From Lingula anatina (Eukaryota; Animalia; Brachiopoda), in NCBI GenBank assembly GCA_051362555.1, contig CM120643.1, positions 1,054,001 to 1,118,000 of the forward strand: a DNA stretch of 64,000 nucleotides, read 5' to 3'. Positions 1 through 46,761 of this stretch are shown here, piece by piece (within the stretch, counting starts at the first letter, position 1; each line of letters begins with the position of its first letter). The notes under the pieces were generated by a model. The model was not told where the DNA came from, ran no database searches, and saw only the letters and a list, made by a program, of their open reading frames with translations. Both the position numbers and the translations under genes were made by a program.

Positions 1-584
1 ATTCACCTATTCCCCAAATAGAAAATCTAACCTCCATTTCTTCTATGATAACATGTTAACTCAGTCTGCATACATAGCGCACGCTGACGTATATGACCTT
101 AGTCATTTGTCAGTGACCTCTGTCAATTTAGTTGATCCGCTTTTATATTTAATGTTATGTGAGCTTACAATGAGGTCGGTACATCAGCTATTTATACACT
201 TAGGTAGCTATCAGCTGTATGTGATCTGCAAATATTTGGAGTTTATTTATAAACACCCGAGAGTTGCGATAAGACTTTAAAACTTACTCCAATATGTATC
301 GGTTTATCACACGATGTTGTGTTGGTTGTTAACCAGTGCTGTAAGAATTTTAAAAGGTGAAACATTTCAGAGACTGAATGACTTTAATTTAATCTTAGTT
401 CGAGAAATAATCAGGTGTGACTTTTATGTGTGGCTTTTGTGCTAGCACGTTATTTTTTTTAAATCTCAGAACATAAAACCGCAGGAGAAATAATAATATC
501 TAATTAACAAAAATGACAAACTTGTCGACAATAATATGAAGTTAACTTCGCTCTCATTTGTAATATATATGTACTAGTAAACAA

Positions 585-706
585 TTTATATATAATGTCA
601 TGTAATATCATATCATAGTATACTTTATATATGATGTCATGTAAAATCATATCATAGTATACTTTATATATGATGTCATGTAAAATCAAATCACAGTATA
701 CTTTAT
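585..706. repeat. 39-bp minisatellite, about 3 copies
   Basis: Unit tttatatatgatgtcatgtaaaatcatatcatagtatac. The homologous array at ~45736-45940 has about 5 copies. Confidence 0.85.
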
Positions 707-772
707 CATAATAAGAACTACAGCAGCTGATACCCGTCATATTAATCACTGAAACATAACAATGATAAAAAA

Positions 773-841
773 TGGAATGGAAATCGAACTCATTCCGCCG
801 TGATTGGCAACCACGGACGTTACCACTGGCCCATCAAATCC
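773..841 (-). pseudogene. tRNA-Gly(GCC)-derived sequence (pseudo-tRNA or SINE head)
   Basis: Minus strand reads GGATTTGATGGGCCAGTGGTAACGTCCGTGGTTGCCAATCACGGCGGAATGAGTTCGATTTCC. It has an A-box-like TGGGCCAGTGG, a CCGTG/CACGG stem around a TTGCCAA loop, a B-box-like GAGTTCGA and a following T-run. The acceptor stem is broken. Confidence 0.55.
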
Positions 842-862
842 TGATATCTTGAATAGTGCAAT

Positions 863-1002
863 CAGGGGCGGACTGAGGCTGGGTTATTAAGTTTACACTG
901 ACTGGTATCTATCTTTCTGTCATAAGACGGTCAACAATAGAGGGTTTTATCAACAAAGATAAATTGAAAGGCTGTCAGAAAATAACCCTCAATCCGCCCC
1001 TG
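863..1002. mobile_element. Small hAT-like MITE (CAGGGGCGGA termini)
   Basis: caggggcggactgagg...cctcaatccgcccctg terminal inverted repeats; no clear TSD. Confidence 0.5.
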
Positions 1003-2532
1003 GTTACTGACAATATATGATAGCTTTACGGAAATTGCCGAAGGCTAAAAAATGCCTTCAAAATTTACTTTTAACAGTAATAATCAAATTCAATCTACGG
1101 ACTCAATCTTCCCACTTTCCTATGTAGTTAGGGAGAATAACGTGAAAAGGAGACTTCGACTGATCTGCCATTACTATATAGATTGTAACACAAGGGTACA
1201 TTTACCAGTGCATTAATCATCTGCAAATATCAACAGCAATGATTACATACAGTTTTCTCGTCATGTTTGCTCACACAACACCTTAGCATTCATTTTGTGT
1301 TAAGATATAGTAATAACTTTTAAAAAGTATATACAAGTAATTTCAAACGGTTTTCACCGAGTTACAGTGTTACTACATGTATGACCACTGTCTCACCCTG
1401 TCTAAGTACAAAGTATGAAAAAACATCTAAATCAGCATCCCGACTTTGACTCTATATACTTAATATTCATCACACATCTGACATTACAATAACACAAGTG
1501 AACAAAGCAAATCGGCAGTGGAATTATGCCTGATAAGGGGTATTTATCAGAATGAGTAATGTAAGATAACATTAAAAATTTAATAAACAAATATAATTTA
1601 ATTTGTCAATAGGTACAGAAAAATTAACTTAATTTAGCAGCCAGCAGATAAAATATTGGTTGATATATTAAGTTAATCATTTTAAAGCTATTGACAAACG
1701 AAAAGCAGCATGGTTATAAAAACATACACTAAATAAAACTGTTCAACCTTATAACTTGATAAGATCAATGGGATATAAAACAACGTGCGCTGGCAGATTC
1801 AGGATAGTAGCAGGTAGTAGACCCATGATGTCATCATTGAAGTGAATATATCGATTTGCAAAAATTCTGGGAATTTAACAGTGCTTTGGATGTGGGTCGG
1901 TTATTTCTCCCCATTTTGTAAAGGACTGATCTTGAGTCCGATATTTTGCCTTGGAAGGAGGAGAGAAATTCTAAGGGCCGATAATATGTATCTGCTAGCG
2001 ACGTGGAGATTAAAAAAAAAACATTACAGTATGTCATTTCAGAAACGTACAGATCTATTTTAACGATAACCTATACTTCTTCCAAAGAATGCCGTCAGCA
2101 TTTATTTAACGCCCCCTTATATAACTTTTTAACACATGAGACCTAGCTAGGTCTGGATAAATTATGTCTGGGTCATTGTAGATTTACCACATTTTTAACA
2201 CGTGTGTTTACTATTTTTAACAATGACCTGAAATTTGAAACGTGTACTTATTATCTGCTTTGTCTGACATATAAGAACTTGGCTGCTACTTCTCCGTTAA
2301 CTATTTCAACACACTTGATAATCTACCGACCATAAAAACAAACATTGTTCTTAAAGTGTTTACATTTAGTATCTTAAAAAAAGCAATTCCCCGGCACAAT
2401 TGAGGATGAATGTGAAACTGTCGTTTTGTCCTGTATATGTGAACGTTAAGGTAGGTCAGTACGCCTGTATACAGACTGGAAATCCAGGCAAGTCTTAGGG
2501 AGATGTCACGCGATATATAGATATGTGGATGC

Positions 2533-3420
2533 AATGCGGGTTTTCACTGGTAATTTACGACATGTCTTTGGAAGATACCACATGATATATACTGTACGGG
2601 CCAGAATAGAAAAACAAAAGTCTTTGTTTTGTCCGTTGCAATTGGCTCAGTGTTATTGTCTAAGTGGACGTAAGTGGTTATTTAACCGAAATAATTGTGA
2701 ATATCATATTTATATCATGAGTTAATGCAGTGTTGGGAGGCAAAATGTAACGAAATGAATAAGTCATTACTTACCCTGGATACTTCAAGCTTCTGAACGG
2801 CCTTCACGCGACGCTTTACCGTCTTCTCGAACTGTTCACTTTCTCCTGTGTGTGGTCGTTTCATTGTCGCATGAATGGTAGGGACAGAATCTTCCTTCAA
2901 CGTCCTTTTTGTCTTTAAACCCAGCGCGTTCATAAGCGGGGATGCGAAGCAATCTTCCTCGAAGTGTGCCCCACAAAGAACGGCCTGAGACGATGGTGAG
3001 GGTGCATTGAATTTCTTCCTTTTTGTTTGCGGAAACCTATGCAAGCTGTGCCCAGTATGCTTCGAGTTTGAGCAGTTTTGGGCAACACACTTTTTAACCA
3101 TGATACAATACGGACGCTTTTATAGAGAACAACATCAATTTAAACGCGGCACCAGACTGACATAGAAAGCGGGTCTCGTGTATTATATAGGTCAACCCCA
3201 GATCTACCAAATACGTGGCAGCCTGTGACAGGCTATATGGTCAAGGTGACTTGTTTTTATGTAGGTCAGCAAATTCGCTCTAAAAGCATGCGTTTTTTAT
3301 CGATTTATTCACTAAAACGATGTCAGAAAATTTTGAAAAAAATATTTTTGTGCAGAATTAGTGTTCCTACATCAGGTAATAACAATATTTTAGGGTGTAA
3401 AACGGGTCAATACCTGCTCT
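2533..3420 (-). mobile_element. Truncated Kolobok-like DNA transposon with a THAP-domain exon (2775-3101)
   Basis: ORF MVKKCVAQNCSN..HRFP..LCGAHFEEDCF..LKEDSVPTI is a C2CH THAP domain with a GTAAGT donor at 2774. The terminus ...caatacctgctct abuts TTAA (3421-3424). THAP plus a TTAA target fits Kolobok. Confidence 0.65.
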
Positions 3421-11895: not shown

Positions 11896-12964
11896 ATGAG
11901 GCTTCTGTTCATTGTTGTGTAGAGCCAGGTATAAAGTAAGAACGGATGTTTTAGTTTTCACAAGCCTTTATTTACTGTGGAACAACCTTTATGACTACAT
12001 TTCTGTCCCCTTTTCCACTCTTTAACACTTGATATATACACGGTACATGTGCATGTAGCTAACTCATCATTTCTCACTTTGCATGTACATATAATTTATG
12101 CAATCCGTGCCGTCACCTTGCTTTAACCTTTTTAACCTTTTAGTACTTTGTTCATGTTCTAAGGTGTCTTCTTCTTTTATAACAGTAACTAATATTATAT
12201 TATACAGGATCCTCTCTTGGGCGTCTTATTCTGTTCCTATCGATAACTAACATTACATTAATATTGACCACCATATTACCGTGGTATCAATATATCACAC
12301 CCATATTATATACTTACAACCTGGACACATATTCTTTGGAATATGTGATTAATTTCATTCTATTAAGAATTAATACATATCCACGTCTATATCCACGTAA
12401 TAATAATAATAATAATAATAGTGATAATGATAATAATACGCAAAACATATCCATATAAACAAAAATGAAGGACGGTAATATTGTTAAAACTTTATGACCA
12501 AGTACATGTAAGATGTAAAGCTGTTTATTTACTTATCGAGTGTTTAATGTGAGGCCAAAATTTTCGCCTTTCGAATCGTTTGCAGTATTGCATGATTTAA
12601 CTGTGGTTCTCTTATTACAGTACTGACACATTCTCTGTTTACAGTCCATCTCCTTTGCTATTTGTACTCATTCAGATGCCACTTTGTGAAATAAAAGGGT
12701 AACTATAATTCCAATAAAACAAATAGTTACAGCACAAACATTGCGACCAGTTTGTTTTTATGAATATCAGCAAAGAAACTTCTGTATGATTTTCATTCTC
12801 ACTATTATGAATTATTTAAGATAAATTCTGGTAAATTTAATCACTGCTTTATACTATTTTACATTATCGTAAAACTAATACTATAATGATAATTTTGTAC
12901 TACAAAAGCACATACGTACCACATCTGGACATTTCGTATTACTTGTAACATTCATAATTAGATT

Positions 12965-13160
12965 CCCGTAGCAAAATCAAATCTGCAGTAATGTTGCAGT
13001 AATATCAAAGTTTGCAGAGACGGGTTGCAGGGGTTCGAAGAAAAAAAATTGCCGCTTATTTGCAGAAAGATTACTGCAATCTTTTAAGAAGAAATTGCAA
13101 TTTGCAGCAATATTGCCGAAATTTGCTACAGATTTGCAGCAGGCCTGATACGGTATGTTG
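12965..13160 (+). mobile_element. Probable terminus of a non-autonomous EnSpm/CACTA-type element
   Basis: Starts CCCGTAGCAAAA followed by many ttgcag/ctgcaa subterminal motifs; the other end was not found. Confidence 0.35.
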
Positions 13161-14067
13161 CAAAGGTTTTTTACTTTTAATGTTAAATTTCTCAATGAAA
13201 AGAATGGCGGACCCAATCCAAACTGCTAGAAATTCATGTGAAGAGAGCTCACAGACAATTGAAATCGTGCGCCAGTACTTTTGCTTTTCATTGTACATAA
13301 TGTATACATGTCTAAAACTAAGAATCAAAAATAATTATTATTAAAGACAAGTCGAAAATTGTCCTCTTATCGTAAGTTTGTGGACAAGATAATTGTAGGC
13401 GGTCCGCTAACGGTAGGAAGAACAAATTTAGCTGAATGATCGTCATTTATGATCCAACTACCAATGAACATTTTTGCTCATACAACTACATTATGTGAAG
13501 TTCTTACTCCATAAACATCTAACAACAAGACAGCATGAGCCTTTTATAAAAAAACAGACACAGTAGTTGAGGATGATTGTAAATAGAGGTTTTGCGTTTG
13601 CAACTAGATTAAACCATGAGAAATTACAGCTATGTGAAGATTAGAAACAGGCAGCAAAAACGGAACACCTCTATTTTGGTAAGTACTAACCCAGACACCT
13701 GACACACATTTCGTTTGAAAAAGAAAACATTATAAGCACAACATGAAATACGCCTCTTACTTCTTTATATTTGGTGCTGGAACCGTGTTCCAAAGTTTGT
13801 AAATTTACGGTTTTATTTGCCATATACTAAATACAAGTGGTGATTATCAATAACAGTAAAGAACTCCAGTCTATGTACGGCGGAAACCAAAATAAAAAAA
13901 AATTAAACGAGAAAAAAATTAAACGAGAAAAAAATGTAGGTTGAGAAAAATGAACATGTGATCAAATTTAAGTTACTTGAGTCTCAATAGAAACATCATG
14001 GTAACAGAAGGCGAGGGTGGCTACTACATAGCAAGTGTACCTGTATGTCCACTTCCACTGCCTTAAT

Positions 14068-16867
14068 TCACTCTGGATAGTACAGCCCTGGCCAGAAATA
14101 CAATGATTTCCTCAATGTTAGCGTCGATATACTTGATATCTGTCGGCAACCATCTCGAGTTGGCATCTTGGAGACACTGTCGTTCACCTTGTTGATAAAC
14201 AATAACCAGTTGACATAGCAACATCAACCACTTTCTTTGAAATGTGTGATTTTAAATTACATTTTGCTACTTTTCATAATTAACGTAATCGTCCAGTGTA
14301 AAGGGGGCTTAACTGAGATATTAGTTTACGCCCCCTGTGGGCGGCGTCCTATCTGCGTTCCATAATACGGGCCCGATTGAGAGTAGAAAAATAATAATAC
14401 CCAGTGTAAAGGAGGTTTAACTGCGCTGATCACATCAGTGCATTTATCTATTCGGCTTTCGTGGGGCCGCAGAAGAACATGTATGTAAAACGTATGAAAA
14501 GATCTGTCTAATATTTGTAACTGGCGCATCCCAAAATAATCATCTGTCTCTATAATGTACGAAATCCTCCTATGCCGGTGTGACAGAAATGGTAGTCCTG
14601 GGAATGGAACTCCGGGCTCCGATACTGTTAGTACCAGTAAAGAATAGGGTTATTCGAAGTGTTGTGGAACGAAATTCACCGGTGCAAAGCAATGGAAAAC
14701 GGACTACGGACGCAAGCGGACCACCGCTCCTGCCACACTTAGCTACTGGGAGTGATATTTGAGGGGACAACATTAACCATTTGTCTTTAGTTTTGTTTCA
14801 AAGAGAACTGTTGTAATACGTGATTACCTGTGTCAATATATCAAGTAGATGGGTGTCACATGCTTTTTCCGAGAGCTCTTTAACCAGACACTGAATGAAA
14901 AACGTACCATGTTCAGTAGATCGCCAAGACTTGTCACCTGAATGGTAAGCAAACCTTACTTTAATGCCGGGTGTCAAACAAGCGTCACTTTGGTCAAAAT
15001 GCAGCCAAGAAGACTATAACAGAAGATATACTTTTCGGACGCCATCTAATGATATTCACATCACACGTCCTTAATTTTTTTTCTACAAAAATGTGATGTA
15101 TCAATAGAACAAAAAGTCACTAGAAACAAAAACACTCGACAATCTTACCTCTGGTCGTTGAAGTTACTAATATCATATCAGCTTTCTCTGGATTTGAGTG
15201 AGTTTCTTGCGGTCTCGGTGGCACTTGTTTTGTATTTAGCAACGGCGCATTTTCATCCATACCTTATGCAAAATTAAGAGATGTTTTTACATAGATAAAA
15301 GGCAGGACAAAGAAGTAATGAAGCAATTCCCAAATTATACTGACAAAAATTTTTCACTTAATATTGTGCAAAAGAGAAAATTATTTACTGAAATATCTAA
15401 ACCACCGTTAGTATGACTGTTTAATAAAGCTCCATTTAATATTTTATATGATAAAAATAAAAATATATAAAAACTCCCCCCCCCAGATTTATAAAAGGTA
15501 GGATACAACATGTTTTACTATATCAATCATTATAACAATCACAATACGTTTAAACACAAAAGCATAAAAGAAAGAATCAATAAAAACCTCATATCATACT
15601 TTACACACCAAATTCAAACTTGTCTGACATGAAGAACACAATAATACATCAACCTAGATGAATAGTACTTACTGCCCTGACACGCAGATATGAAGAACAT
15701 CTTGGGTTTGCCGTTCAGTGTCGGGCACCTGGAAGCCTCAAAGTGCGCCAGAATTTGGTCATACCCTATGTGATTACCATCAGTGCCTATCACCGTGTTC
15801 TCTCCACCATGACTCAGGATCACCATGATGAAGGAAGAGTAAGCACTGTGATCAGTGCTTGACTCACGTCTGGCAAGTTGGTCAATAGCCTAAATAGCAT
15901 AATTTAAATATCTACATTTGATCATTTATGTTCATAAAACCGTTTTGTTTTATTGTATCATTAACTGACACCCCACTTCATATACCATAATGTGTGTTAA
16001 TCTTCTTCAGATGTATGTCATTATCTGATAGTTTTAACTATGTATTTTAAAAACATCGCCCAAGCAATCTAAGACATTTTGAGGCCAAACTGGAGAGTAA
16101 TTGCAACAGTTTTTTTGCCACAGTGCTTTCCCAAATTGACAAACTAAACTCAGCAATGGTTGGCATTTCCTATATAGAAACGTCATAACGTAAAGACATG
16201 GTAAAAGTGAAAAAATAAATTTAATTGAGACATTCGTGGAATTTTGTTCTATACACATGTTTAAAAATGAATACAACTTTGAATTTATTGAATTTTATTT
16301 TTGGACACTTCCGCGTGTGAAATGCATCTCTTTATATGTATTCGTACTATAGCTAGTATACAAAATACGAAAATGCGGCAGGATAACTGACAGTTTAAGA
16401 TATCAACGTACCTCAGCTGTCAGGTTGTCATGCTTCAACACCAAGTAATGTAACTGCCGAAATAAACTTTTCAAATGCTCAACATCCACCTCTGTGCCCT
16501 TCCTATCAAGTGAAAACTTATTGTCAAAGCTGACATTGTTGATGATCACAGCTCTTCCCCTCCAATCTGTGTAGTTCTTGTAGACCTGTTGATTGCCAAA
16601 AAATTTTGGGAGCATTAACTGCAATTACAAAATTTTACTGGTGTATCAAGGAGATAAGGTGTGAAACATTTAGAGGATGTTGTTATAAAACTGCAAATTT
16701 TCTAACAATAAATCTTTTATAAAGTTTGAATATAATATAACAGACTTATATATCAAAAATAAAATCTAATGAAGTGTAGCAACAAACCCGTTTAGCGTCA
16801 TATGCCTTCTTCTCGAAGAGTTCAACTGTACAAGGCCAGACCTTAACTTTCTCCTCTCTGCTTGTGC
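14068..16867 (-). CDS. Caspase domain exons (large and small subunits)
   Basis: His (SHG) and Cys (SACQG) dyad plus both S1 arginines (DRKGT, SWR). VKVWPCTVELF..VY and LYFWPG resemble caspase-2 VKPCTPEFY..AY and LYLFPG. Confidence 0.92.
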
Positions 16868-19251
16868 CTAAAAGTGCAAAATGTCTCCCACGTCCCTAAT
16901 TAATATCGATTTTATAGCGCATACTATGGTAAAATATTTGCCGGGAGCATCGCAATCCCAGTAAAATGGTTTCATTGGTTCACTGTCTGCCAACCTTGGT
17001 CAAGTTCATTGGGTCACTAGCTATGGCCTCCCGTATTTTTGTCCTGTTAATATGGTCTGGCCCCATTTGGTACCCCCCCCCCCCGATGGTTCATCGGCAG
17101 AATGCACCAGTTCCCATATTGCCCCCATGCGCATGCGCAGTCCCTTGTTAAATTCGGTGTCCAGTAAATGAAACCATGTACAAGCGTGAGACCTAGACGA
17201 AAGTTGGCTTACTATATACTGTTGTCGATTTATATTGGGATGCACGCGACAAGTACTTTTTTTACGATTGCGCCATGCGGCAGAACATAGCTTAGAGGTG
17301 ACCTAAATTCTCAAACCGTTTTGTTATATGATCACAAATTTTGAAAACGGTTAAGGGACTTTAAATAGAAAAACTTTCAAGAGTTTACTGTTAAAAATGT
17401 ATAACAGAATGTACCGTGGTGTCAAAGAAACCAGGCTCACTACTGTGTAATACAGCGTATGAGAACGACACTGTCTTGTCAGGTTTGTCAAAATTAACGT
17501 CAGGCTTGCTGGAGACTAGCAATTACTCTGATTAAATCTCAGCGAAGCGGTTTAATAGCTAGGCCCCTGCAAGACTGGCGCTTGTGGTCGGCGGGTACAC
17601 CATTAGGGTATTAGCGGCATTGCATTCAAGTGGGTCGGCCATATTTGACCCGCGGACCAATTAGTCTAAGATCGCATTCACAACGAATTGATCCATGGCT
17701 TTACAAATCCTGGAACTTAATATGGCGGACGTACATGAAAGAACAGCCGCCTAATCTTTTAATGGTCTCTCCACCTATCTCGCCTCCCCATGCGTCGTCC
17801 CTGCAGGGGTACAGTCATTAAATTTCGGCTACAATGGGACGACACATGAGGAGGCGAGTGAGAGGCTTAGAGACTATTAAAAGATGAGGCGGTTTTTCTT
17901 ACCTGCCTCCAGACTTTGAGGACTGCGTGGTTCTTTCTCCACAGCTAAAATGATTGAAATGCAAATTTATTATTGTTATCTTTTTTTTTTATTTTTTTTT
18001 GACATTTTATAGCACAGTCTGAAATTCCAATACATTATGTCCATTTCCAAACAAGAGAACTTGTTTTCTTTTTCTAAATCACTTACTTGTAAACCAAACA
18101 CGATATGGTTTCAGCTGAATCTCTTCGTCAGATTTCTCTACGCATACACGGATGGCATCTGTTTTTAGAACGGTCTCTGCTTCTATCGGCATTTTGTGCC
18201 TCTTATCGTTTGCCCTGATAAAGTAGCCAAAATGCATTCTGGGACAGTATGTCTCTTGAAGATAGGACAACTCGTCTTCCACTGTTTGTCGTGCGTTGAA
18301 GTATATGTTACTCTCAGCGTTATCTATCACTAGTTCAATGTCCTTTTCTGCAGTGAAGAGATGAAGCACAGATGTTTTGTCTTCCAGACGGAAGGAGGCG
18401 TGGTCAAAACCAACATCTGGGATGCCATTTACACAATGGTAAGGTTTATACTTCCTAAGCAGACGGATGATCAAACGATGGAATAGCCCTGGAGGAAAGA
18501 AGCCGTGAGGGAATGAAATGAATAAAGATATTTCTCGAGCCTTCTCGGGGGGGCGAAAGTTCACCAGGTCATTGGATTTCAGCATGCTAGGCACGACGAA
18601 TTTTCTCTTTCCAGACGGCAGCATTGGATTTTGAACTGATTTAGATATGTCCAACATCAGGTCAAAATGCTCCATAAGTTGAATCACTTCGTTTTTCATG
18701 TCGGTCATCTTTTCCTTCTGCAGATATACATCGAACACCTCCTCGTTCAGTTCTCCTTTTTCCAGACTTCGTTTCAAGTAATCGAGGCGATCCTTTCCAC
18801 TTTTACTAACAGGCGGGGTCATGATGGCAGAAAACAGATCTGCTAACCACTGTGGATCCAATATAACGATATTTTCCAGTCCATCCACTTTGAAGTGTAG
18901 GACGTCTCCCAGATGATGATGGTAAGGAATAAACATTTCATCTAACTCCGCGTCACGGATTCCAACTAAGCGCGCCATATCACGCAGTTCTTTAATATAT
19001 ATGATCGGCCTTTCTTCACTCTTCTTCGCCAAATCCAATTCCAACTGGAACCATCTCACTGGGTGCATTTGGCGGCCAGCTTCTCTGTCTCTGCTATAGC
19101 CACAAAGATGCTCGATCTCGCTTTTTATTTCATCAAACTCCTCAACGTCGGCCAAGTTACTTATGGCAAAACAACGGTAGACGTGTTCTGCGAGTTCCTG
19201 CTTGTCCTCCAGATAGTCCCTGAGTTGATCAAGTATCTCATCAGCGGCTTC
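14068..19251 (-). CDS. Roc(C-terminal)-COR-caspase fusion protein (caspase-2-like C14 peptidase); 5' end incomplete; 673 aa visible
   Basis: Exons 19251-18087, 17944-17903, 16867-16788, 16585-16412, 15889-15673, 15262-15149, 14937-14828, 14187-14068. All introns are GT-AG with compatible phases, giving 2022 nt with no internal stop. Roc G5-like FAISN; COR motifs HPVRWFQLE, LGDVLHF, VILDPQWL, FVVPSML, PPGLFHRLIIR. Caspase motifs GRAVIINN, RKGTEVD, ILSHG, GKPKMFFISACQG, PEKADMIL, SWR..GTFFIQ, TLRKSLYFWPG. Confidence 0.88.
16961..17180. mobile_element. Possible small MITE in an intron of the caspase gene
   Basis: Short inverted ends atggtttcatt / aatgaaaccat. Confidence 0.3.
17739..17900. repeat. 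Imperfect inverted repeat (arms ~60 bp) abutting a splice donor
   Basis: aagaacagccgcctaatcttttaatggtctct..ctcgcctccccatgcgtcgtccc vs gggacgacacatgaggaggcgag..agagactattaaaagatgaggcggtttttctt. Confidence 0.85.
18087..19251 (-). CDS. Large exon: end of Roc domain plus COR domain
   Basis: ORF 18079-19155 extended upstream to the AG acceptor at 19253-19252 (EAADEILDQLRDYL..FAISN); GTAAGT donor at 18086. Confidence 0.9.
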
Positions 19252-20937
19252 CTATAAATAACACGGTATGGGGTTTAAAATGTTCAATTTCATATAAAAT
19301 GTTAAGTTTGCCTTTGGAAAAAAAACATTATCCTTTACACTCACATTCAAGTACATTTCACTTAAAGGCATAATAACTCTTTGTATGTATATTTCACAAT
19401 AAAAACATTGTGAGTAACTCATAGAAATATAATATATTCTGTTTTACCACAAAAACAGCAGTTATAGCTATTATTCTGATATCTGAGCTTGTCTTTAGAC
19501 CACGTGACCTCCATTGATGGCTATAGACTGTTAAAATTTCTTAAGAGATTTTAACAAAAAAACAAACTTTTTAGAAAAAAAAACTGGGACTAATTTTTAA
19601 TGTAAAAATGAATTCATTAATCATTGGTAAGAATGGGAAAATTGTTGTTTACTCCAGGAAAATTCATTTTTTGGCCGAAACGAAGAGTTATTATTGCTTT
19701 AAACAAGAGGGAGGAAAGGGGTCTGCTTGTGTGTGTGAGATAATAAAATCCCAGAGAAGGAAGGAGCGAAAGACGCTTATCTCGACACCAAATCATGTCA
19801 ACCAAAAACAGTCACCTTTTTCTTGTTCTGGGTACAAGTAGGTACTTAGTTTCTAGATTTCAGTATTGGCAACTCGATCACGATTTCTGTATAACCCTTA
19901 TCAGAAATTCTGACTGTAGTCATACTAGGGGTGTGTTCGGCAACATTTTGCCTGGGGCGTTTCCATATTTGAAAGCCACATGTCTCGAACGTCACAGATC
20001 TGTCCCGCCTGGAGCTGCCTTTCCCGCCTTGAGCTGACGTCATCTCGTGCAGACGAGACAAAGACGAAAAGAGGCTGACCCGGAGATTGAATTTTGAAGT
20101 AAGAATACCTTGCAATCGAAAATCGATGCCACAACACAAGCCCCTTTCTGCTTTAAAACTAATTTTGGTGTAGCCATTGCGCAGTCCTTATAGTGGTGTT
20201 GGACATACAGTGTACATTAGTGGGTCTGAATTGGTCTTAAAGTGCAATTTTAGACTTAAACTGGTATGAAGCGATCTTAAAGATTAAGTAAGGAGTCTTA
20301 ATTTTTAAGTTTTCATTTATGATAGATCCAGATATTTTGGCTTACCTGTTAACTGTCTTTTATGTCTGTGCTCTGATGTCAAAACTTTAAAAGTATGCTG
20401 CACTAGTACTAGTATTAGACACATTTATGCGCATGTCAGTAACAGTAGACTGGGTCGTGTACGGCTTACGCCATATTAAGATTTTATGTGATTCGAACGC
20501 TACGAAGAATTCTGATTTTTAAGTTATATACATATGAACTAACCAAGACTAGGCTGACAACATTATTGAAAGCTTCTAAAAATATTCTTTGAAAAACAAA
20601 ACAAAACAAAACAAAAATCTGACTATATCTAGTGACACCGCCAAATCGACCTCTACCTATACACACTGAACACTTTTAACACCAAAAGGATGGCTGTAAA
20701 CGACACAATACATCACGTCAATACGGTGATCGCACACGCACAAGTGCATAGAGCCTATGACAACGATAGTGATGAGATAATGACATGTATTACAGCGCAC
20801 CATTCTGACACAGATAAGATGTGAAAAAGACTATAGATGAGTGAATGGACGCTTGGTCAGAAACGATTATCAGCAATCTAAAGCAGATCCGTGCCAAGGA
20901 CAACGCCGGTGGCGCCAGGAAGACGCAGAATAGCAGG

Positions 20938-21556: not shown

Positions 21557-23765
21557 AGCCTCGGTCACAACCGGCCGCACGGGCTCTTACGGGCTGTTTG
21601 CGTCCAGATTTTGCGCAGAATCTCACGTCCCACACAAGTCCTTACGCAAATTCGAGCTAGCCGACAGCCCGTAAGCACGTACGGAGGATGTTGGACATGT
21701 CGAAAAGATTCTACGAATAGTCTGCGAACAGCAAGGCCGCAAGCGTAACTTGCTCCCCTCGCCCGGAGTTAGCAAGAGAGACGCGCGTAGTGCAAGACGC
21801 ACGTCGCAAGCAATGAAGAAGCAAATGCCATTTGCGTGTTGAGTAAGACACCAGCCCTCTGAACTAAAGAACAAAGTGGACAGCACATTGGGAATGCGTC
21901 GCACGTGCGTCACCCCCACGCAGTAGCTGCGAAGAGATGCACGAAGCTAGATATTCAAACAATTTTGACATATCTCAGGGAAGATAAATTTTCTCCAGAA
22001 GCTTCACTCAAAGAAAAAGGGGTAATTAGAAGAGCCAGTAACGATAACTACAAGGTAAATCATTTTCTTAAAATTCATATTAACCTTAAAGTTTTCCGTG
22101 GACTTCTATTACCAGTACAGCATGTCCACAAAACCATTGTCACTTCCAACGCACGTCGGCGGCCTAAAGACATTAGGAAGCATGCTCTAGCAAATATAAT
22201 GAGTGGATATATACTTTCAGTACGCATATTATTTGGTTTAGCAAAATGTTAATTGCTGTTTTCAATGCTTGATATGCGTTTGGAAATGTTATCTTTATTT
22301 ATGAATTATCTTTTTTTTAGCTCGAAAGAGGAGAACATTTCTAAAAAGTGCAGGATAAAAACCCAAACAAAATGTTGAAACCAATGATGAATCAGGGGGT
22401 GAAGGCACCTCTTCAATGATAACTGAAACATCATGGAGAAAAGTTATGACAAACCAGGAAGAAATAAAGGACATTGTGGCTAACATGCACTCCTCGGTCA
22501 TAGGCATGCATATTTGTGCGGGCGTATCTTCATGTGAGCAACAGTGTGTGCGCACGTGTTGTGTTAAGAAACGTTAATTACATACCATGATATATATTTA
22601 TATAATAATTGTAACACTATGATGTCTGTTAATAACAACTGTAATAATACGTAATGTTCTGTTATAGGCGGACATCTCGGGCGGGATAAAACTCTTGATA
22701 AGCTTCAGAAAAGGTACTACTGGCGTAATATGGTCGAGGATGTTAGAAAATTCATAGCCTGCTGCGCAATTTGCCAGAAGGCAACACACAAATATAAACA
22801 AAATGACCCACCTCTCCAACCAATACCTGTCACAACGCCAGAAGCCTGGAATATGGTAAGAAATATTTGTTCCTTATACCCCCTTTACACTTGACGGCGT
22901 CCTTTCTGCCACCATGAAATTTGGCATCGCTGTGGTCTTAATAAGATGGCACGATCATTGATTTTGTATCAGAATGAATGCTCAATGACCGGCCAGTTGT
23001 CGGCACGTAAAGTATTATAATTTTTTAACTCTCAAATGGGGCCGTACTGCTGGACGCAGAAAGGACGCCGTCCAGTGTAAAGGGGCCCTTACATCGTTAT
23101 TATCCATGCAGATAGCACTCACACATTTCATGCTCGAGGCTTGTTTGTCAAGAAAGCACACCAGCAGATGCTATTTTCTTATATTTATGATTTTTTTTCT
23201 AAATAAAAGTAATTTTGAATTTCATCAATATTCAAGAAAACATAGTTCGTACACTATCATTATTTTTTTTTTTCAGATTGGAATAGATTTGATTGGCCCT
23301 CTGAAGGAGACCACTAATAACACTTTGTACATCTGCACTGTGGTTTGTTACTATTCAAAGATGGCACACCTCCAGGCATTGCAATCTAAAGAGGCAACTG
23401 GTGTTGCAAATTTTTTGCTTGATTTGTTTTTGGTGTAGTTTTAAATTTGGCACATGAAACTTGCTTTAAAACATTAAATACCATACTTGAAAATCATCTG
23501 AACTTTGTATGATTTACTTACTGCCTATTAATACTACTACAAATCCAATGATTATGGGTTTTAAGTTTTTTAATGACAAAATAATTGAGAACGCCTGCCA
23601 TATGCTTATTTCTACGAGTGTATTTATACGTATACATTCATTTCATTGTTTATGAACCATAAATAAATCTTAGCGTTTTTCGTTTTAAGTTTAGGGTTCC
23701 CACAGACAATACGGTCAGACCAAGGTCGGTAGTTCAATAATAAACTAATCCAACAGATCACAGAG
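21557..23765 (+). mobile_element. Intron-containing gypsy-type integrase (Ginger/GIN-like) relic nested in the LINE
   Basis: Spliced pieces ~21938-22054, 22321-22503, 22668-22855, 23277-~23432, ~23689-23765. They translate as NMHSS..GGHLGRDKT..YYWRNM..CAICQ (HHCC), IGIDLIGPL..YYSK and IRSDQGR*F. Contains stops; 3' end truncated. Confidence 0.8.
22877..23088. mobile_element. Harbinger-type MITE in an integrase intron
   Basis: TIR cccctttacact(t/g)gacggcgtcctttctgc; flanked by TTA on both sides. Confidence 0.75.
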
Positions 23766-24614: not shown

Positions 24615-26837
24615 CTATTTGGTCAGATCCCCCCCCCTTGCCTGCCCCTCCCTTAGGAGTGGTAGGTAGAGGTTGGGTAGCTCAGTCCCATCATTCCGAT
24701 TCAACTTGGCCCCATGTAAGCGGATGTTAATTGCTTCAAGAACTTTCCGGTGTAGATCTCGTGGCTCTCTTTCCAAGATTATTATGTCTTCTATGGTTGT
24801 TGATGTTATACAATGCCCTGTCTGTTCCTGGTGTTGGCTGAGGGCAGATTTTTTATCATGTTTTTTGATCGATTTTTGATGTTCAGCGATTCTTTCAGTT
24901 AAGGAACGTCCTGTCTCTCCGATGTATTTCTCTCCACACACCTGACACTCACACTGGTATACAACTCCACACTGTTCTCCTGGGTCTAATTTGTCCTTTG
25001 GGGATACTAGGATGCCTCTTAGTGTCTGTCCTGCCTTATGGTGTAATACTACATTCCTTTTTCTGAATGCTCTTTTTAGCTTTTCACTAACCCCTTTCAT
25101 GTAAGGTAGTACTGCATATCCTTTGGGTTTTTCTTTTTCAGTCATGTTCTCGGGCCTTTGTTGTTTTTCTCTTCCTTTCTTTTCCCCTTCTTTTATAGCC
25201 CATTCTGGGTAACCACAATTTCTAAAAGCCACTCTGATTTTTTCCTTCTCTATCTCTACCTTGGGTTTCTCTTTTATCAGTGTGTCTGCCCTATGCATCA
25301 GCGTCTTGATGATTCCTATCTTCTGTTGGACAGGGTGGTGGGATGTCCACTGAAGGTAGTGGTCTGTATGCGTAGGTTTTCTATAAATGTCTGTTGTGAT
25401 GTTATCATTCTTCCTAATAAGCTGTAAGTCCAGCATGGGTAATGTCTGGTTGTCATCTTCCCTTTCTATTGTGAACTTAATGCTGTCATGTTGTGCATTG
25501 ATATGTCGGAAAAGCTCCTCCTCGTGCTGTTTCTGTATTATAACCCCTGTATCATCGACGTATCTGGCCCAAAATTTTGGTGGGTGGGTGGCTGTTCTTA
25601 GTGCCTTCTCTTCAAACTCTTCCATGAATAGGTTGGCCAGGACAGGAGAGAGTGGAGAGCCCATTGCCATTCCATATACCTGTTCGTAAATACGCCCTTG
25701 GTACCGGAAGTAGGTTGTCTCAATTGTTAGCTTTAGTAAGTCCCCAAAGTCCTCTGGAGGAAGCAGTGTTCTGTTTTTCCAGGTTTTATCCTTCTTGGCC
25801 CTTTCTACTGCCATATTTGTCACTTCGTTGCCTGGTACGCTGGTGAATAGGGCTGTTACGTCGAATGAGGTTAACACCTCCCCCTCTTCCAGAGTGATCT
25901 CTTCCACTTTTTTCACCAGGTCTTGTGAGTTGTTTATATGGCTTGGTTTCTTCCCTACTAAAGGTTTCAGAAGATCTGCTAGGAATCTTGCAAGGTTGTA
26001 CGTAATGGAGTTGATACCAGAGACAATAGGACGCATTTTTATGGGGTCTTTGTGGATCTTAGGTGTTGCATAAAATCTCGGAGTAGCATCCGATGTAGGG
26101 TATATTTTGTTATAGGTGATCTGGTCTAAATATCCCTTATTCTTCAGTGCCCTCAATTTCCTTTGTATTCTGCCCTTCATTACTTTGGTTGGATCCTCAG
26201 GTATCTCTTTGTATGTGGTGTGATCATCTAACAGGTGTTTGCATTCTTCTATATAATTGTCCCTGTCCATTACCACTACACACTTTCCTTTGTCTGCAGG
26301 TACAATCATTATCTCTTTATTGCTTTTTAGTGACTTCAGGGCTTTCCTTTCCTCATGGCTGAGGTTGTCCTTTGGAGGCTTGGTATTCTTGATGATGTTC
26401 ACAACTTCATGCCTTAGGGTATCAGCTTCCTCTGGAGGGAGGTGTAGTTGTTCACAAATCACCTCTGTAGTAGCAATTATTTCTTTTGTTGGAGTTTTTC
26501 TTGGGGCAATGGCATAGTTGAGGCCTTTTGCTAATACTTTGATTTCTGTGTCTGTGGGTTGGTATTTTGACAACACTTTGACCCACTTTTTTAATTGTGT
26601 GCCAGATAGGTCAATGGACTCCTTTTTGTCTTTCAGTGATGTTCTTCCCTGTAGTCTATCAAGTTTGTTGATCTGAGTTTGTCTGCTTTTCCTGAACACG
26701 CTTTCTTCTTTGTTATGGATGTGTTCTTTGACCATATCCAATAATTCATTGTCACTGATGTTATGGTTCTCCCAACAACTTTTTACGTTGTTTTCCACAT
26801 TTTCCTTGAACTCGTCTTGAATGAGACTGAAAAACAA
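24615..26837 (-). CDS. Penelope-type reverse transcriptase plus GIY-YIG endonuclease (740 aa open frame, N-terminus missing)
   Basis: Motifs ADKG, PKIHK..MRPI, SFDVTALFT, GMAMGSPLSP, RYVDD, YRKPT, GVVYQCECQVCGEKYIGETGR..RIAEH, LEAINI..LNRNDG. Confidence 0.95.
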   Translation of the reverse strand: MFFSLIQDEFKENVENNVKSCWENHNISDNELLDMVKEHIHNKEESVFRKSRQTQINKLDRLQGRTSLKDKKESIDLSGTQLKKWVKVLSKYQPTDTEIKVLAKGLNYAIAPRKTPTKEIIATTEVICEQLHLPPEEADTLRHEVVNIIKNTKPPKDNLSHEERKALKSLKSNKEIMIVPADKGKCVVVMDRDNYIEECKHLLDDHTTYKEIPEDPTKVMKGRIQRKLRALKNKGYLDQITYNKIYPTSDATPRFYATPKIHKDPIKMRPIVSGINSITYNLARFLADLLKPLVGKKPSHINNSQDLVKKVEEITLEEGEVLTSFDVTALFTSVPGNEVTNMAVERAKKDKTWKNRTLLPPEDFGDLLKLTIETTYFRYQGRIYEQVYGMAMGSPLSPVLANLFMEEFEEKALRTATHPPKFWARYVDDTGVIIQKQHEEELFRHINAQHDSIKFTIEREDDNQTLPMLDLQLIRKNDNITTDIYRKPTHTDHYLQWTSHHPVQQKIGIIKTLMHRADTLIKEKPKVEIEKEKIRVAFRNCGYPEWAIKEGEKKGREKQQRPENMTEKEKPKGYAVLPYMKGVSEKLKRAFRKRNVVLHHKAGQTLRGILVSPKDKLDPGEQCGVVYQCECQVCGEKYIGETGRSLTERIAEHQKSIKKHDKKSALSQHQEQTGHCITSTTIEDIIILEREPRDLHRKVLEAINIRLHGAKLNRNDGTELPNLYLPLLREGQARGGDLTK

Positions 26838-26839
26838 GG

Positions 26840-26883
26840 TAATAATAATAATAATAATAATAATAATGGTGATGATGATGATG
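26840..26883. repeat. (AAT)n/(GAT)n microsatellite at the Penelope junction
   Basis: Directly visible. Confidence 0.85.
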
Positions 26884-29800
26884 AAAACATATCCAATGAA
26901 TACTTCGAAAAACTAACTAAAAATTCTTACTTTTATTTAGTCTTTAATAATTTTTTCAGTTAGCGAGTGATTTGAAGTTTTTTTTTCTTTTTTTTTATAT
27001 AGAGAGAGTGAATAAGTTTGTTAATACAGCCTTATTTCACAAATGAATGCTCTTGCAAGATACAGCGTTTTCCGTTCGTTGTGCAAAAGAAGTGTACTGT
27101 CGCAAATGTTGGACCCTTCAAAACGCAATCTACAGTCGCAACTAACACAATGTACAGACTTTGCTGCACAGCGCAGATTTACCCAATGTGCTGACAACCG
27201 TCTTCCTTTTGGTTCTCCTCGCCAGCAGTTCATTATTCATGACCAACGCAACGAAATTTCGACATCCGGGCATTAAAGAAGTGTTCTGTGGGATTATCGT
27301 TTCTTGCACAAAGCTTAATAAACTGTGTTTTACGTCTCAGATTGCCGAGGTCGATCAGCGAACGATTTTAATAGATTATCTAGTCAAGGACTATAATACA
27401 TTATAGCAAACAAAAGAACTGCTGTGCTGAACTGCTCACATTCGTGTAAAATCAGTGAAACCACTGTGCGCATATAAATTAACGGGTCGTCCTCGGCGGT
27501 GAGCACTTTCCGTCCACAGTGTAATTTAATTGACCGGGGTAAAACCTCGCCATGCACGAGTTAACTGACGCTGAGGTAACATTAAAGCTATTGAACGTCC
27601 TTATTAACGCAATAAGGGATTTTATAGTGGAAATCAAACGCCGATGTCAGGGTTGTGAGATCTCGACGGTTAACATTATTCATAACTTCGTGACTAGTAT
27701 TAGTTTTCGTATTGTTTTTCCTCTTGTCTCCACTACCAAAGCAAGATAACTCTGATTATACATGTCTGCAACCTGTACACGTGTTAAAATATTCTCGTTT
27801 GAACTTAGTAGGTAATTCTATGTATACGAAACAATTTAGAACTAAGGGACCGAATTTGATCTGAGAACCAGAATAGAGCCATAACATACGCCGTGGTGAT
27901 TGTTGAGACACGAGTTTCTTGGTGGTAGCTCATACTTTAAGAGGTGTAAAAACCTGTAATAGAGAGTAAACCTCGAACGCTGGTATTTAATTGATCTAAT
28001 CGACCTTAGGCCAGGCCGTTACCTGAGTAGCAGTGCACAATGCTCGTAAATAATTTAACAAATTGATGCTAACAAATTTTAGAAGTTAACCCTAACAAAT
28101 TTAACCCTGTCCGCAATGGAACATCTCGGAACAGATACAGCAATAAATGCTGTCGTTGTGCATATGCAGTCATCCGCGTCACACACACACAAAAAAAAAT
28201 TTAACATCCATGCCCAAACATAAGATAAACCGCGAATTGGAGGCAGCTGCGGATGGATTAGCAGCATCCCTTAACTTGGGTCCGCGCTGGCTTCACTGAT
28301 GACAGCTTAATAGAAGAATTCAATTGAAGTCAATATTGTAACATTTGACCCTAGTAGAATACAGGATTTAAAACGCAGACACATTAACAATGATATAAAA
28401 GCTTTCAATGTGCATTCTTTCCCTGTTCGCTGTTTCATTTGCGGATTGGGGGGGGGGGGGGTAGGGGGTTCTGACCCCCCCCCTTCGGTTTCTGCAAAAA
28501 ATCCAAATTTTTTCTAATATTCAAAACTAGTATTCCCCTTTTTGAGATTGAAAATTTGATTTGCTGAATCATAGTTTTAAACCGAACCAAATGACACCGT
28601 TTACCCTCCAAACCCTCAATTTTTTTTTTTTTTTTTTATTGGGGGGGGGGACCTTGAGCAGGCCCCGAAATCCACGCCAAGGGGCGAGGGTCGGTATTGT
28701 ATTCGAGGCCTGTCATGCCTAAATAAAAGAAAAAATACAGATCCTCCCCCCCCCCTTCAAATAATTCCTTATACGCCCCTGCAATTCTGTATATTGGCTA
28801 GAAATCTACTTTAATTATTTTGATCGGCTCGGTACTTATGTTCAATGACCTGGCTGTGCCCATTGAAATGGGACTTTCTTGTGCACTTGTACACAAAAGG
28901 CACACTGAAATCACAGAGACACACGCTAACAACACTCAGATGTAGACAGACAAATATTTCTTCAGCAGAGATTTTCTTGCGAGTTAACTTGAACATTACA
29001 ACACTGAATATGGAGGACGCATCGATAACAGGAAACGAAACGTCTTCAAGCGATTACAATCATGAAAATGTCAGTTTGAAAAACTGCAGTAAGAATTTTT
29101 AAACGAAACATCATATTAATGTTCTCATTTATGTATGTGGTGAACCATTATGGCATTCCAGCGCCTTTGTTTTGTGGATCGCGATCAAAATATAAAAGAA
29201 TATTGTTTTAATTGATTTAAAAGATACTTTAAAAAGGTCATTTAAGCTACTATTTCCTGGGCACATTGATAAAAATGCAAATAATTCATTCAGCTGATAA
29301 AGTTCACACACACACACAGAAATTCAAAAAACTGTTTTTAAAAGACAATTAAAACTCAACTTTAGTGTTAAAACGAGAAACAGCTTAAAAGGACAAAAGT
29401 TATTGAAAAACCTCTTACTAGCTTTAGACAAAGGACCCCTGGCAAATAAAAGAACTTCACGTAGGCATCACAAATACAGAAATGACCTTTCTTTGTGAAC
29501 AACAGCCCCAGGTGCGTCTCGGAGACGAGTACAATTACAGAAGACAAAAACGTTTCTTCTAATGAGATAAAAGACCAGACAAAAGAAAACAGATCCACGT
29601 AACTGCAGCCACCCAGAGGAGCTCACAGTTGCTCAAGTTACCAGGGTTATTGTGTTACAATAGCATTAAGGTGTCCTGTCGCGTCCATATGGTATGACAC
29701 TGAAGACAAACCAGAGGTTATTGGACACGTTTGGGGTCATTATCACGCCACATCTGGACAGCGTTGCTGTCTGACCACACCTCAGCAGAAATGAACGCAG

Positions 29801-38835: not shown

Positions 38836-39622
38836 ATGGCAACAACAGCTGGAATACTCCCTGAAATCCCAAGAAATGAAACATAAAATTATTTCCGCAT
38901 GCGACTGCTCTTAGAGCGTGCAACTGACGTGCTTCGAGATGTTCTCAGGACTCAGCTACAAGCAGCTTATCCGGGACTGTTTGATCCCAGTAAAACTGAC
39001 AAACTTTTTGACGTTCTTGACAATCGACAAGTCAAACATTCCTTGCTGTCATTGAAAAAGAGGAAGGTAGTGAACTCAAGTCAAATGAAACTCCTGTACC
39101 CCTCTGGCACCCCTTCAACAACTGTGACAACACAGGACTTAGATATTACACTTGTAGCTGTCTTATTAAGAAACATCACCAATCTGAACCCTCATGCTAA
39201 ATGGGAAAACCCACCAGCTTCCGACACCTCCATAGAGGCCAACATTGGTAGAGTGAAGACCTACCGCAACAACCACATGCATGGAAGTCCTGGCATCACT
39301 GACATAGCATTTCAAGCAGAGTTTAACGACCTCAAACAAATTCTTCTTTCACTGTCGCCAACATATACCAGCGATGACTACGACAAGCTTATTATTGTGC
39401 CTATGGATGCTAAAGGTAATTGAGTTTTATAAAGCAGCTTTCGGGGAATAAAAATAAAATGTATTAAATTACACGTAGTCAAACCCGCGTTTTTTGTCAG
39501 CCAAAATAGTAAAGTCCTTTCCAGGATTCAGGAAATTTTTTTATTTGCAAAAATTGAAAAACAACCTCAGTCACAAGGAGGTCTCTCTGAGTGCTTTACT
39601 AGATACAACTATTAGTATTTTT

Positions 39623-45593: not shown

Positions 45594-45660
45594 GGATTTG
45601 ATGGGCCAGTGGTAACGTCCGTGGTTACCAAACACGGCGGTGTGAGTTCGATCCCCACTC
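45594..45660 (+). pseudogene. tRNA-Gly-derived sequence, second copy
   Basis: GGATTTGATGGGCCAGTGGTAACGTCCGTGGTTACCAAACACGGCGGTGTGAGTTCGATCCCCACTC followed by a T-run. Confidence 0.55.
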
Positions 45661-46761
45661 TTTTTTTAAATCATTGTTGTGGTTCAGTGATTAATATGAC
45701 GGGTATCAGCTAGTGTAGTTCTTAATTTATTATGATAAAGTATACTATGATGTGATATTACATGACATCATATATAAAGTATACTATGATGTGATATTAC
45801 ATGACATTATATATAAAGTATACTATGATGTGATATTACATGACATCATAAATAAAATATACTATGACATGAAATGATATTACATGACATCATATATAAA
45901 AAATACTATGATATGATATTGCATGGCATCATACATAAACTGTGCACTAGTACATATATATTACAAATGTGTACGAAGTACCTTCATATTATTGTTGAAA
46001 GATGTGTCACTTTTGTCAATTAAATATTATTATTTCTCCTGCTGTTTTATGTTGTATGGAAGTTCTGAGATTAAGAAAAGAACGTGCTAGCACAAAAGCC
46101 ACACATAAAAGTCACACCTAATTATTTCTCGAACTAAGATTAAATTAGTCATTTAGTCTCTGAAATGTTTCAACTTTCAATTGTTTACAGCACTGGTCAA
46201 CAGCCAACACAGCATCGTGTTATAAACTGATGAATATTGGAGTGTGTTAATTGAGAGCTTGTACATGAGTTTAAAAAAAAACTACGCATTTTTATTTCGT
46301 TTCGTTTAGTGATATTAATTTAAACGTAAAATTGTAATTTAAACGTAAATGTAAAAATACAAACATACGCAAACGCTTTGATCAAGTAATGGCAACACAC
46401 CCCTTGCACCCCATATTGATCGTAAATTAACCCTGTTTTAATTAACAAGCACGTAGGCTTCCCATGTGCCTCTGATGGTTATATATATATATTATATATA
46501 TTATTCCACATTGTGTAAACACTAGGTGTTTGTTGTTGACGTGGGTCCGGCAACAGAGCACACATTTTTCCACCAGTTTTAAAGTCTTATTGTAGCTCTC
46601 GGGCGTTTAAATATAAACTCCAAATATGTTCTGATCATATAAAACTGATAGCTACCTTCAGTGAATCCATGGCTGATTTACCGACTTTATTTTAAGCTCA
46701 CATTATATTAAAGATAAGAGTGGGTCAACTTAATTGACTGAGGTCACTTACAAATGACCAG

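What the first reader, a model, noticed from the sequence alone, without database searches (positions are those of the whole stretch)
14068..19251. ROCO-caspase fusion: a Roc/COR module sits where caspase-2 has its CARD
Seen: eight GT-AG exons splice in frame, with all phases matching and no stops, into Roc end + COR + short linker + full caspase with its His/Cys dyad. Caspase-2-like signatures flank the protease (VKVWPCTVELF, LYFWPG). Established: COR mediates dimerisation in ROCO proteins, and initiator caspases are activated by induced dimerisation. The familiar animal ROCO proteins (LRRK1/2, DAPK1, MFHAS1) carry no caspase. Inference: a nucleotide-gated, self-dimerising death or immune protease that would not need a PIDDosome/apoptosome-type platform. 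I do not know of this architecture being characterised.
Basis: partly seen in the sequence, partly recalled or inferred. Interest (0 to 1): 0.88.

Follow-up and report, generated by a model that had tools for sequence, protein, structure and literature searches.

The report
Brachiopod COR-caspase fusion, GTPase exons missing
A brachiopod gene joins the COR half of an LRRK2-type module to a cell-death protease, a pairing already noted in a marine worm and found here in several animal groups; COR likely lets the protease pair up and switch itself on, but this copy's GTP-binding exons are not in the window and the mechanism is untested.

Summary
The exon chain is real. Eight AG/GT exons give an open 673-aa COR-caspase, 62% identical along its length to a Lingula anatina RefSeq Roc-COR-caspase. 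Three corrections. (1) The window holds only the tail of Roc. The G1, G3 and G4 GTP-binding motifs were not found in the 44.7 kb upstream, so this copy is likely 5'-truncated and not itself nucleotide-gated. (2) The protease groups with lophotrochozoan caspase-Y (99/94), not caspase-2, which Lingula is reported to lack. (3) The architecture is in print: PMC11463336 reports an Owenia ROC-prodomain caspase, and PMC8195603 predicts bacterial Roc-COR-caspases. I found no functional study. What this adds: Roc-COR-caspase proteins in Lingula (3), Owenia, amphioxus and a sea anemone. Their caspases do not form one clade (AU p = 1.6e-15). One Owenia protein, and likely one in Lingula, also carries a Bcl-2 domain. 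RNA reads did not show the junctions (inconclusive). The scan earlier noted a protist Roco with a caspase-like protease on other DNA. Verdict: a new, probably damaged member of a barely described kind.

The parts
18087..19251 (-). Exon 1 (internal type, phase 0 acceptor): last ~60 aa of Roc (after G4) plus complete COR. COR-A is aa 64-224 (19062-18580). First in-frame Met is aa 62 (19068).
   Evidence: Pfam COR-A E 9.4e-22. AlphaFold pLDDT 88. Foldseek top hit is the Chlorobium Roco COR domain 3dpt, E 4.4e-13, TM 0.61/0.76. Coordinates.
17903..17944 (-). Exon 2, 42-nt linker micro-exon (phase 1-1)
   Evidence: AG/GT bounded. The matching segment of paralog P0002 follows COR directly.
16788..16867 (-). 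Exon 3, segment before the caspase large subunit (VKVWPCTVELF)
   Evidence: Near-identical in RefSeq XP_013409672.1 = P0022.
16412..16585 (-). Exon 4, start of caspase large subunit, with Arg457 (S1-pocket Arg by recalled caspase numbering)
   Evidence: Pfam Peptidase_C14 E 5.2e-9.
15673..15889 (-). Exon 5, catalytic His514 (15811-15809) and Cys557 (15682-15680). Ser555 stands where most caspases have the Gln of QACxG.
   Evidence: Pfam E 2.4e-15. Residue coordinates. Paralog P0022 aligned to caspase-3.
15149..15262 (-). Exon 6, inter-subunit linker (one Asp, at aa 562, before the conserved ADM) and start of small subunit
14828..14937 (-). Exon 7, small subunit with SWR motif (Arg603)
14068..14187 (-). 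Exon 8, end of small subunit (LYFWPG) and stop codon
19252..64000 (.). Upstream 44.7 kb in which no Roc G1/G3/G4 exon is found. It holds transposon remains and an opposite-strand HEPN-NB-ARC-TPR gene.
   Evidence: tblastn of five paralogs. HMM of nine Roc N-parts against 3493 six-frame segments: no hit at E<=10. Pfam.

Best explanation
These eight exons are the COR-plus-caspase part of a Lingula Roc-COR-caspase-Y gene, a family in which COR likely serves as a built-in dimeriser that would activate the tethered caspase, and this copy has likely lost its GTP-binding Roc exons in a recent rearrangement. Shown: the exon chain, the COR fold, the His/Cys dyad, the caspase-Y placement, the colinear RefSeq paralog, and the absence of G1/G3/G4 from the window. 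Inferred for complete members (P0011, P0023, Owenia P0024): COR pairs through its C-terminal half as in Chlorobium Roco, and the short linker (about 10-15 flexible residues in the P0002 model) brings two caspase domains together without an apoptosome or PIDDosome. If the Chlorobium cycle holds (dimer when GDP-bound or empty, monomer with GTP), the protease would be on after GTP hydrolysis or depletion and off when GTP is bound. An immune role is likely. Inferred for this copy: it is either silent or yields an ungated COR-caspase starting at Met62.
For: Colinear 62% match to XP_013401300.1 across COR, linker and caspase. Of 166 proteins held, 8 have the order Roc-COR-caspase, named and confirmed by Pfam. 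COR model matches 3dpt and LRRK1/2. P0002 model has confident COR and caspase with pLDDT<50 at residues 594-602 between them, and its caspase fold matches caspase-8/3/7 at E 2e-25. COR dimerisation: PMC4104024 passages. GDP-dimer/GTP-monomer cycle: PMC5714945 abstract. Activation by proximity: PMC7290664 passages. For truncation and rearrangement: no Roc exon in 44.7 kb, while the longest intron in this gene is 1035 nt. The protein is a mosaic: 294 of 300 identical to the caspase-free P0001 over aa 1-300, then 37/48 and 26/50, then about 90% to P0022, which lies on a contig of different length. P0001's first (HEPN) exon has an 85%-identical copy 19.6 kb upstream pointing the other way. 6 of 9 Lingula Roc-COR records examined also lack G1.
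Against: No transcript junction was seen: none of the 15 joints shown is one of the seven introns, and 31 more were not shown. Reads on the caspase exons carry fixed differences, so they come from another copy or allele. The ORF is intact with a very short terminal branch (0.02), which fits a live gene as well as a fresh fragment. The window ends at 64000 and no whole genome is held, so Roc exons further away are not excluded. The G1-less RefSeq models may be annotation artefacts. Dimerisation and protease activity are untested, and the Gln-to-Ser change may alter or weaken activity.
Confidence: 0.52

Rival explanations
1. The gene is a complete, nucleotide-gated ROCO caspase. Its Roc exons lie beyond the window, across an intron of more than 44.7 kb that holds transposons and a nested antisense gene.
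For: Exon 1 starts at a good phase-0 acceptor that matches the point after G4 in paralogs. The ORF is intact. Transposon remains fill the upstream region. The related P0001 and P0011 have a full G1-G3-G4.
Against: The other introns of this gene are 142-1035 nt. The P0001-type first exon is in the window on the opposite strand and joined to another gene.
Confidence: 0.22
2. The COR exon and the caspase exons are separate units. Exons 3-8 make a short caspase without a prodomain, and the COR exon is an orphan or ends in another tail.
For: RefSeq models P0022 (227 aa, 90% identical) and P0169 (174 aa) begin at the exon-3 segment with their own Met. P0001 carries a near-identical COR followed by a non-caspase tail. 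No junction read.
Against: The micro-exon and its phases match the fused paralog P0002. Intron 2 has no ATGA|GT donor of the one kind that would give P0022's start. P0022 ends early and looks like an incomplete model.
Confidence: 0.12
3. The fusion is real, but COR is not the activator. The protein is a shuffled immune-type product in which the caspase is activated by other means or is weak, or the mosaic is a mis-assembly of two paralogs.
For: Lingula caspase-Y domains are also fused to PARP and RIG-I helicase, and the same COR exon type ends in HEPN, caspase or nothing, so shuffling is frequent. Ser replaces the Gln before the catalytic Cys. No DNA reads were available to check the assembly (one search listed RNA runs only).
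Against: The Roc-COR-caspase order recurs in separate caspase clades, and a Bcl-2-Roc-COR-caspase layout appears in both Owenia and (likely) Lingula. 6 of the 8 listed read differences in caspase exons are synonymous, which suggests selection on the protease.
Confidence: 0.14

Closest known systems
Owenia fusiformis ROC-prodomain caspase CAH1787638.1 (PMC11463336, GBE 2024)
   Same: Roc-type module in place of CARD on a caspase-Y domain. Its Owenia paralog CAH1786849.1 (P0024; paralogy judged by eye from the N-terminal stretch shown) falls in the same 99/94 clade as the window protein.
   Different: The paper only lists the protein. 'COR' has 0 occurrences in its main text, and the three Lingula Roc-COR-caspases have 0 occurrences in its supplement. 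The window copy lacks G1-G4 and has SACQG in place of QACQG.
Lingula anatina RefSeq Roc-COR-caspases XP_013401300.1, XP_013412607.1, XP_013407220.1 (all 'uncharacterized protein')
   Same: Same domain order. XP_013401300.1 is 62% identical over the whole window protein. It and XP_013412607.1 share the SAC motif and form a 100/98 clade with the window protein and P0022.
   Different: They include G3/G4 (all three) and G1 (two of three); the window does not. The window's COR is nearest to the caspase-free HEPN-Roc-COR XP_013395173.1.
Predicted prokaryotic LRR-AP-GTPase(Roc)-COR-effector counter-invader proteins (PMC8195603, section 15)
   Same: Roc-COR with a variable C-terminal effector. Caspase is one of at least 24 effectors listed.
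   Different: Bacterial, with N-terminal LRRs, and predicted only. The animal proteins here use animal caspase domains and have no LRR in the Pfam scans.
Chlorobium tepidum Roco, LRRK1/2, DAPK1, MFHAS1
   Same: COR fold.
   Different: No caspase. A ROCO review (PMC6337361) has 0 occurrences of 'caspase' or 'protease' in its main text.
Caspase-2
   Same: Similar flanking motifs (likeness recalled, not tested against a caspase-2 sequence); activation by dimerisation.
   Different: No CARD. Groups with caspase-Y. Reported lost in Lingula.

Membership tests
ROCO proteins | COR domain | tested here: met
   Pfam COR-A 9.4e-22; Foldseek 3dpt 4.4e-13.
ROCO proteins | Roc GTPase with G1, G3 and G4 motifs directly before COR | tested here: not met
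   Not in the 64-kb window; DNA beyond the window could not be read. Met in paralogs P0011 and P0023.
ROCO proteins | COR-mediated, nucleotide-dependent dimerisation | not tested
   No dimer model was obtained; inferred from PMC4104024 and PMC5714945.
Caspases (Peptidase C14) | Caspase fold with His-Cys dyad | tested here: met
   H514 and C557; Pfam; fold of paralog P0002 matches caspase-8/3/7.
Caspases (Peptidase C14) | Asp-specific S1 pocket (two Arg plus the Gln of QACxG; roles recalled) | tested here: inconclusive
   R457 and R603 present; Gln replaced by Ser555, as in P0002, P0011 and P0022.
Caspases (Peptidase C14) | Proteolytic activity | not testable with these tools
   Needs an assay.
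Caspase-2 | N-terminal CARD | tested here: not met
   COR precedes the caspase; no CARD hit in exon 1 or in P0002.
Caspase-2 | Catalytic domain in the caspase-2 clade | tested here: not met
   Groups with named caspase-Y proteins at 99/94. Caveat: no row identified by name as caspase-2 was in my tree.
Caspase-Y (lophotrochozoan clade of PMC11463336) | Catalytic domain groups with Lingula Casp.Y and the PARP- and ROC-prodomain members | tested here: met
   11-row clade, 99/94, holding XP_013405490.1 (Y3), XP_013416922.1 (Y5), the PARP caspase P0034 (same cluster as XP_013395828.1) and Owenia P0024.
ROC-prodomain caspases (PMC11463336) | Roc(-COR) module and caspase in one transcript | tested here: inconclusive
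   Open spliced frame and colinear paralog, but no junction read and only the tail of Roc is present.

The most novel reading that the evidence does not exclude
Roc-COR-caspases are a class of platform-free initiator caspases that animals have built several times independently (brachiopod/annelid, amphioxus, sea anemone, probably mussel). They switch on when the Roc domain is GDP-bound or empty, so they act as sensors of GTP turnover or depletion. One lineage adds a Bcl-2 domain to the same chain. The window copy would be an expressed, GTPase-less, always-pairing COR-caspase derived from this class by recent exon shuffling.
Probability: 0.27. Interest if true: 0.8.

Novelty: new member of a known kind. 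Interest (0 to 1): 0.5.

Why it matters
Molluscs, annelids and brachiopods are reported to lack APAF-1 (PMC11463336), so how their long-prodomain caspases are activated is open. A caspase carrying its own dimeriser is one answer. A complete Roc-COR-caspase would also be a natural reporter for a disputed point in LRRK2/ROCO biology, namely which nucleotide state is the dimer, because protease activity would read out dimerisation directly. For such work the complete paralogs (XP_013412607.1, XP_013407220.1, Owenia CAH1786849.1) are better than this window's copy, which seems to lack the GTPase. The architecture itself is not a first sighting.

Tried and rejected
Roc exons upstream: a motif scan, tblastn with five paralogs and an HMM plus PAM70 tblastn from nine Roc N-parts found nothing. 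The same tblastn did find caspase exons of 38-44 aa at 55-65% identity, so exons of that size would be seen; very short ones could be missed.

RNA: no RNA holder was listed (no evidence either way). Four of nine same-species runs were laid on 12500-20500 only, 6-26% of each run read. Depth over exons was about 0-12, and no intron junction was among the 15 joints shown (31 not shown). Inconclusive; upstream exons were not tested by RNA.

No whole genome is held.

Single origin of all Roc-COR-caspases: rejected by AU test, with caveats given in the full report. Caspase-2 identity: rejected.

Literature searches for a described family or function gave only PMC11463336 and PMC8195603 as bearing on the fusion; most subscription papers are not in the library. 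Passages of PMC9334734 (Aplysia Roc-COR with TIR) and PMC5094078 (anemone Roc-COR with TIR) showed no Roc-caspase fusion. Scan look-ups by place and by sequence returned nothing.

My first splice had three boundaries off by one base and was corrected (same protein). One search failed on a script error and was rerun.
Full report
Observation. The eight exons are present on the minus strand with AG acceptors and GT donors and give 673 codons plus a stop. Exon 1 carries COR-A (aa 64-224, E 9.4e-22), and exons 4 and 5 each match the caspase domain. An AlphaFold model of exon 1 (pLDDT 88) matches the Chlorobium Roco COR domain best (3dpt, E 4.4e-13), then LRRK1 and LRRK2. A sequence search also finds 3dpt first (E 1.2e-4). 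His514 and Cys557 are in place. Arg457 and Arg603 are kept, but Ser555 replaces the Gln of QACxG (the S1-pocket roles are recalled). In my crude motif count of 145 caspase domains, 86 read QACRG or QACQG; SAC also occurs in two unnamed proteins outside the Lingula clade.

Host and relatives. The closest proteins are from the brachiopod Lingula anatina, so the window is from that species or a near relative; no database protein returned is identical to it. XP_013401300.1 (P0002) aligns over aa 5-670 at 62% and runs Roc-COR-linker-caspase in one RefSeq model, including a counterpart of the 42-nt exon. A search of cluster representatives gave 9305 hits, of which only the best 150 are listed, so the following counts are lower bounds. 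Of 166 proteins held, 12 had both a caspase and a Roc/COR match: 8 in the order Roc-COR-caspase and 4 with a caspase or caspase piece in front. The 8 are Lingula (3), Owenia fusiformis, Branchiostoma floridae, Exaiptasia diaphana and two unnamed ENA proteins, one of them with a truncated caspase. A Mytilus californianus protein with Roc motifs and a C-terminal caspase is labelled ROC in the supplement of PMC11463336 (read by eye; not in my trees).

What is missing. Exon 1 begins eight or so residues after the G4 motif of its paralogs. The G1, G3 and G4 regions are not found anywhere in the window by three methods, although 44.7 kb of upstream DNA is present and the gene's own introns are at most 1035 nt. 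The upstream DNA holds a repeat that is abundant in RNA, a retroelement integrase remnant, an open Penelope-type RT ORF, and a plus-strand HEPN-NB-ARC-TPR gene. The HEPN exon of that gene is 85% identical to the N-terminus of P0001, the caspase-free HEPN-Roc-COR protein whose COR is 294/300 identical to the window's over aa 1-300. Identity to P0001 then falls (37/48, 26/50), and the caspase part is about 90% identical to P0022, a short RefSeq model on a contig of different length. The simplest reading is a recent recombinant that has lost its Roc exons. A giant intron and mis-assembly remain open. Six of nine Lingula Roc-COR records examined also lack G1, which may be biology or annotation. 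The first Met of exon 1 is at aa 62, just before COR-A, so a 612-aa COR-caspase is possible.

Expression. Four same-species RNA runs gave low depth on exon 1 (0 to 4.2) and on exons 4-7 (0 to 11.6) and almost none over the intron stretch 16772-17572. No intron junction was among the joints shown. Reads on caspase exons differ from the window at fixed places; the two amino-acid changes match P0022, so another copy or allele is the one expressed. Six of the eight listed differences in caspase exons are synonymous (binomial p 0.004-0.025 for a neutral share of 0.25-0.35), but three of four listed in exon 1 are not, and 322 rows were not shown. This is weak support for selection on the protease and says nothing on this copy's splicing.

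Which caspase. A FastTree of 145 domains from 118 proteins and an IQ-TREE of 50 of them chosen by me put the window domain with P0022, P0002 and P0011 (100/98). These sit inside an 11-row clade (99/94) that also holds Lingula XP_013405490.1 and XP_013416922.1, named Casp.Y3 and Y5 in PMC11463336, a PARP caspase of the cluster that paper places in caspase-Y, and Owenia P0024. That paper reports caspase-2 lost in Lingula and suggests an immune role for caspase-Y as a hypothesis. The amphioxus Roc-COR caspase pairs with an amphioxus CARD caspase (99/99). Forcing the amphioxus, anemone and ENA (P0030) domains into the caspase-Y clade is rejected (AU p 1.6e-15). Caveats: I named the group after seeing the first tree, used LG+G4 without a mixture model, the anemone branch is long, P0068 failed the length filter, P0168 (identical domain to P0042) was left out, and no named caspase-2 was in the set. 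Repeated independent fusion is likely; the number of events is not fixed.

Mechanism. In Chlorobium Roco, dimerisation runs through the C-terminal half of COR (PMC4104024 passages). The protein is mainly a dimer when GDP-bound or empty and a monomer with GTP (PMC5714945 abstract). Initiator caspases are activated by induced proximity (PMC7290664 passages). In a model of P0002 (pLDDT 82.6) the COR and caspase domains are confident and joined by a short low-confidence stretch, residues 594-602. I therefore infer that COR pairing activates the caspase and that, in members with a full Roc, GTP holds it off. None of this is shown for any of these proteins, and no dimer model was obtained. For the window copy the gating step cannot apply unless Roc exons lie outside the window.

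What is known. PMC11463336 (seen: passages, section 5 part 1, supplement table rows and part 31; its figures, including supplementary fig. S1, not seen) reports an Owenia caspase with a ROC pro-domain inside caspase-Y, treats such cases as species-specific, and notes that gene-prediction errors cannot be ruled out. It lists P0022 and P0024 without a prodomain label and does not contain the three Lingula accessions. PMC8195603 (passages and section 15; source data not read) predicts bacterial Roc-COR proteins with caspase among their effectors. PMC6337361 (passages) does not mention caspases. PMC9334734 and PMC5094078 were seen as passages only. Seven searches found no functional study and no Bcl-2-Roc-caspase report; the library is incomplete.

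Verdict. The finding is a real COR-caspase exon chain and a new member of a kind already noted in print, probably a truncated recombinant. Interest 0.5.

Noticed in passing
P0024 (Owenia CAH1786849.1) and P0023 (Lingula XP_013407220.1); not in the window: Bcl-2-Roc-COR-caspase in one chain. Pfam Bcl-2 E 5.3e-23 in P0024. P0023's N-terminus matches that region (27%, E 7e-16) but has no Pfam Bcl-2 hit at 1e-3. PMC11463336 lists P0024 without a prodomain label, and one search for such a fusion found no paper.
   Followed up: partly
window 38836-39415 and 40283-43536 (+): Two-exon HEPN(DZIP3)-NB-ARC-TPR gene, head to head with the COR-caspase gene. The exons join in frame (1277 codons) but there is a stop at codon 17. 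The TPRs form a 126-bp array of at least 13 units. The HEPN exon is 85% identical to the N-terminus of the HEPN-Roc-COR protein P0001.
   Followed up: partly
window 24615-26912 (-): Open 765-codon RT + GIY-YIG ORF, Penelope-type retroelement (type name recalled).
   Followed up: no
window 19388-19702: About 315-bp repeat 137 bp upstream of exon 1, very abundant in RNA reads (bin depth up to about 1950), with opposite-strand joints between its ends. Possibly a MITE-type element; self-comparison found only a 28-bp palindrome at 19529-19556.
   Followed up: partly
window 286-2428 with 43977-46243; 46759-47450 with 49885-50574 and 50714-51397: A 2.2-kb inverted repeat at 81% identity flanking both genes, and a 690-bp unit in three copies at 97-98%.
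   Followed up: no
window 22655-23438 (+), 2718-3119 (-), 54934-56428 (-): Integrase zinc-binding remnant, THAP domain, and a weak Transposase_21 match.
   Followed up: no
P0094, P0034, P0168, P0050, P0159, P0124 (database proteins): Other caspase fusions: Lingula caspase-RIG-I helicase and PARP-caspase (both in the caspase-Y clade), Exaiptasia HEPN-AAA-Roc-COR-caspase, Potamilus caspase-Roc-COR-Death without the catalytic motifs, an unnamed Ras-caspase, and an unnamed caspase piece-Roc-COR-OTU.
   Followed up: partly
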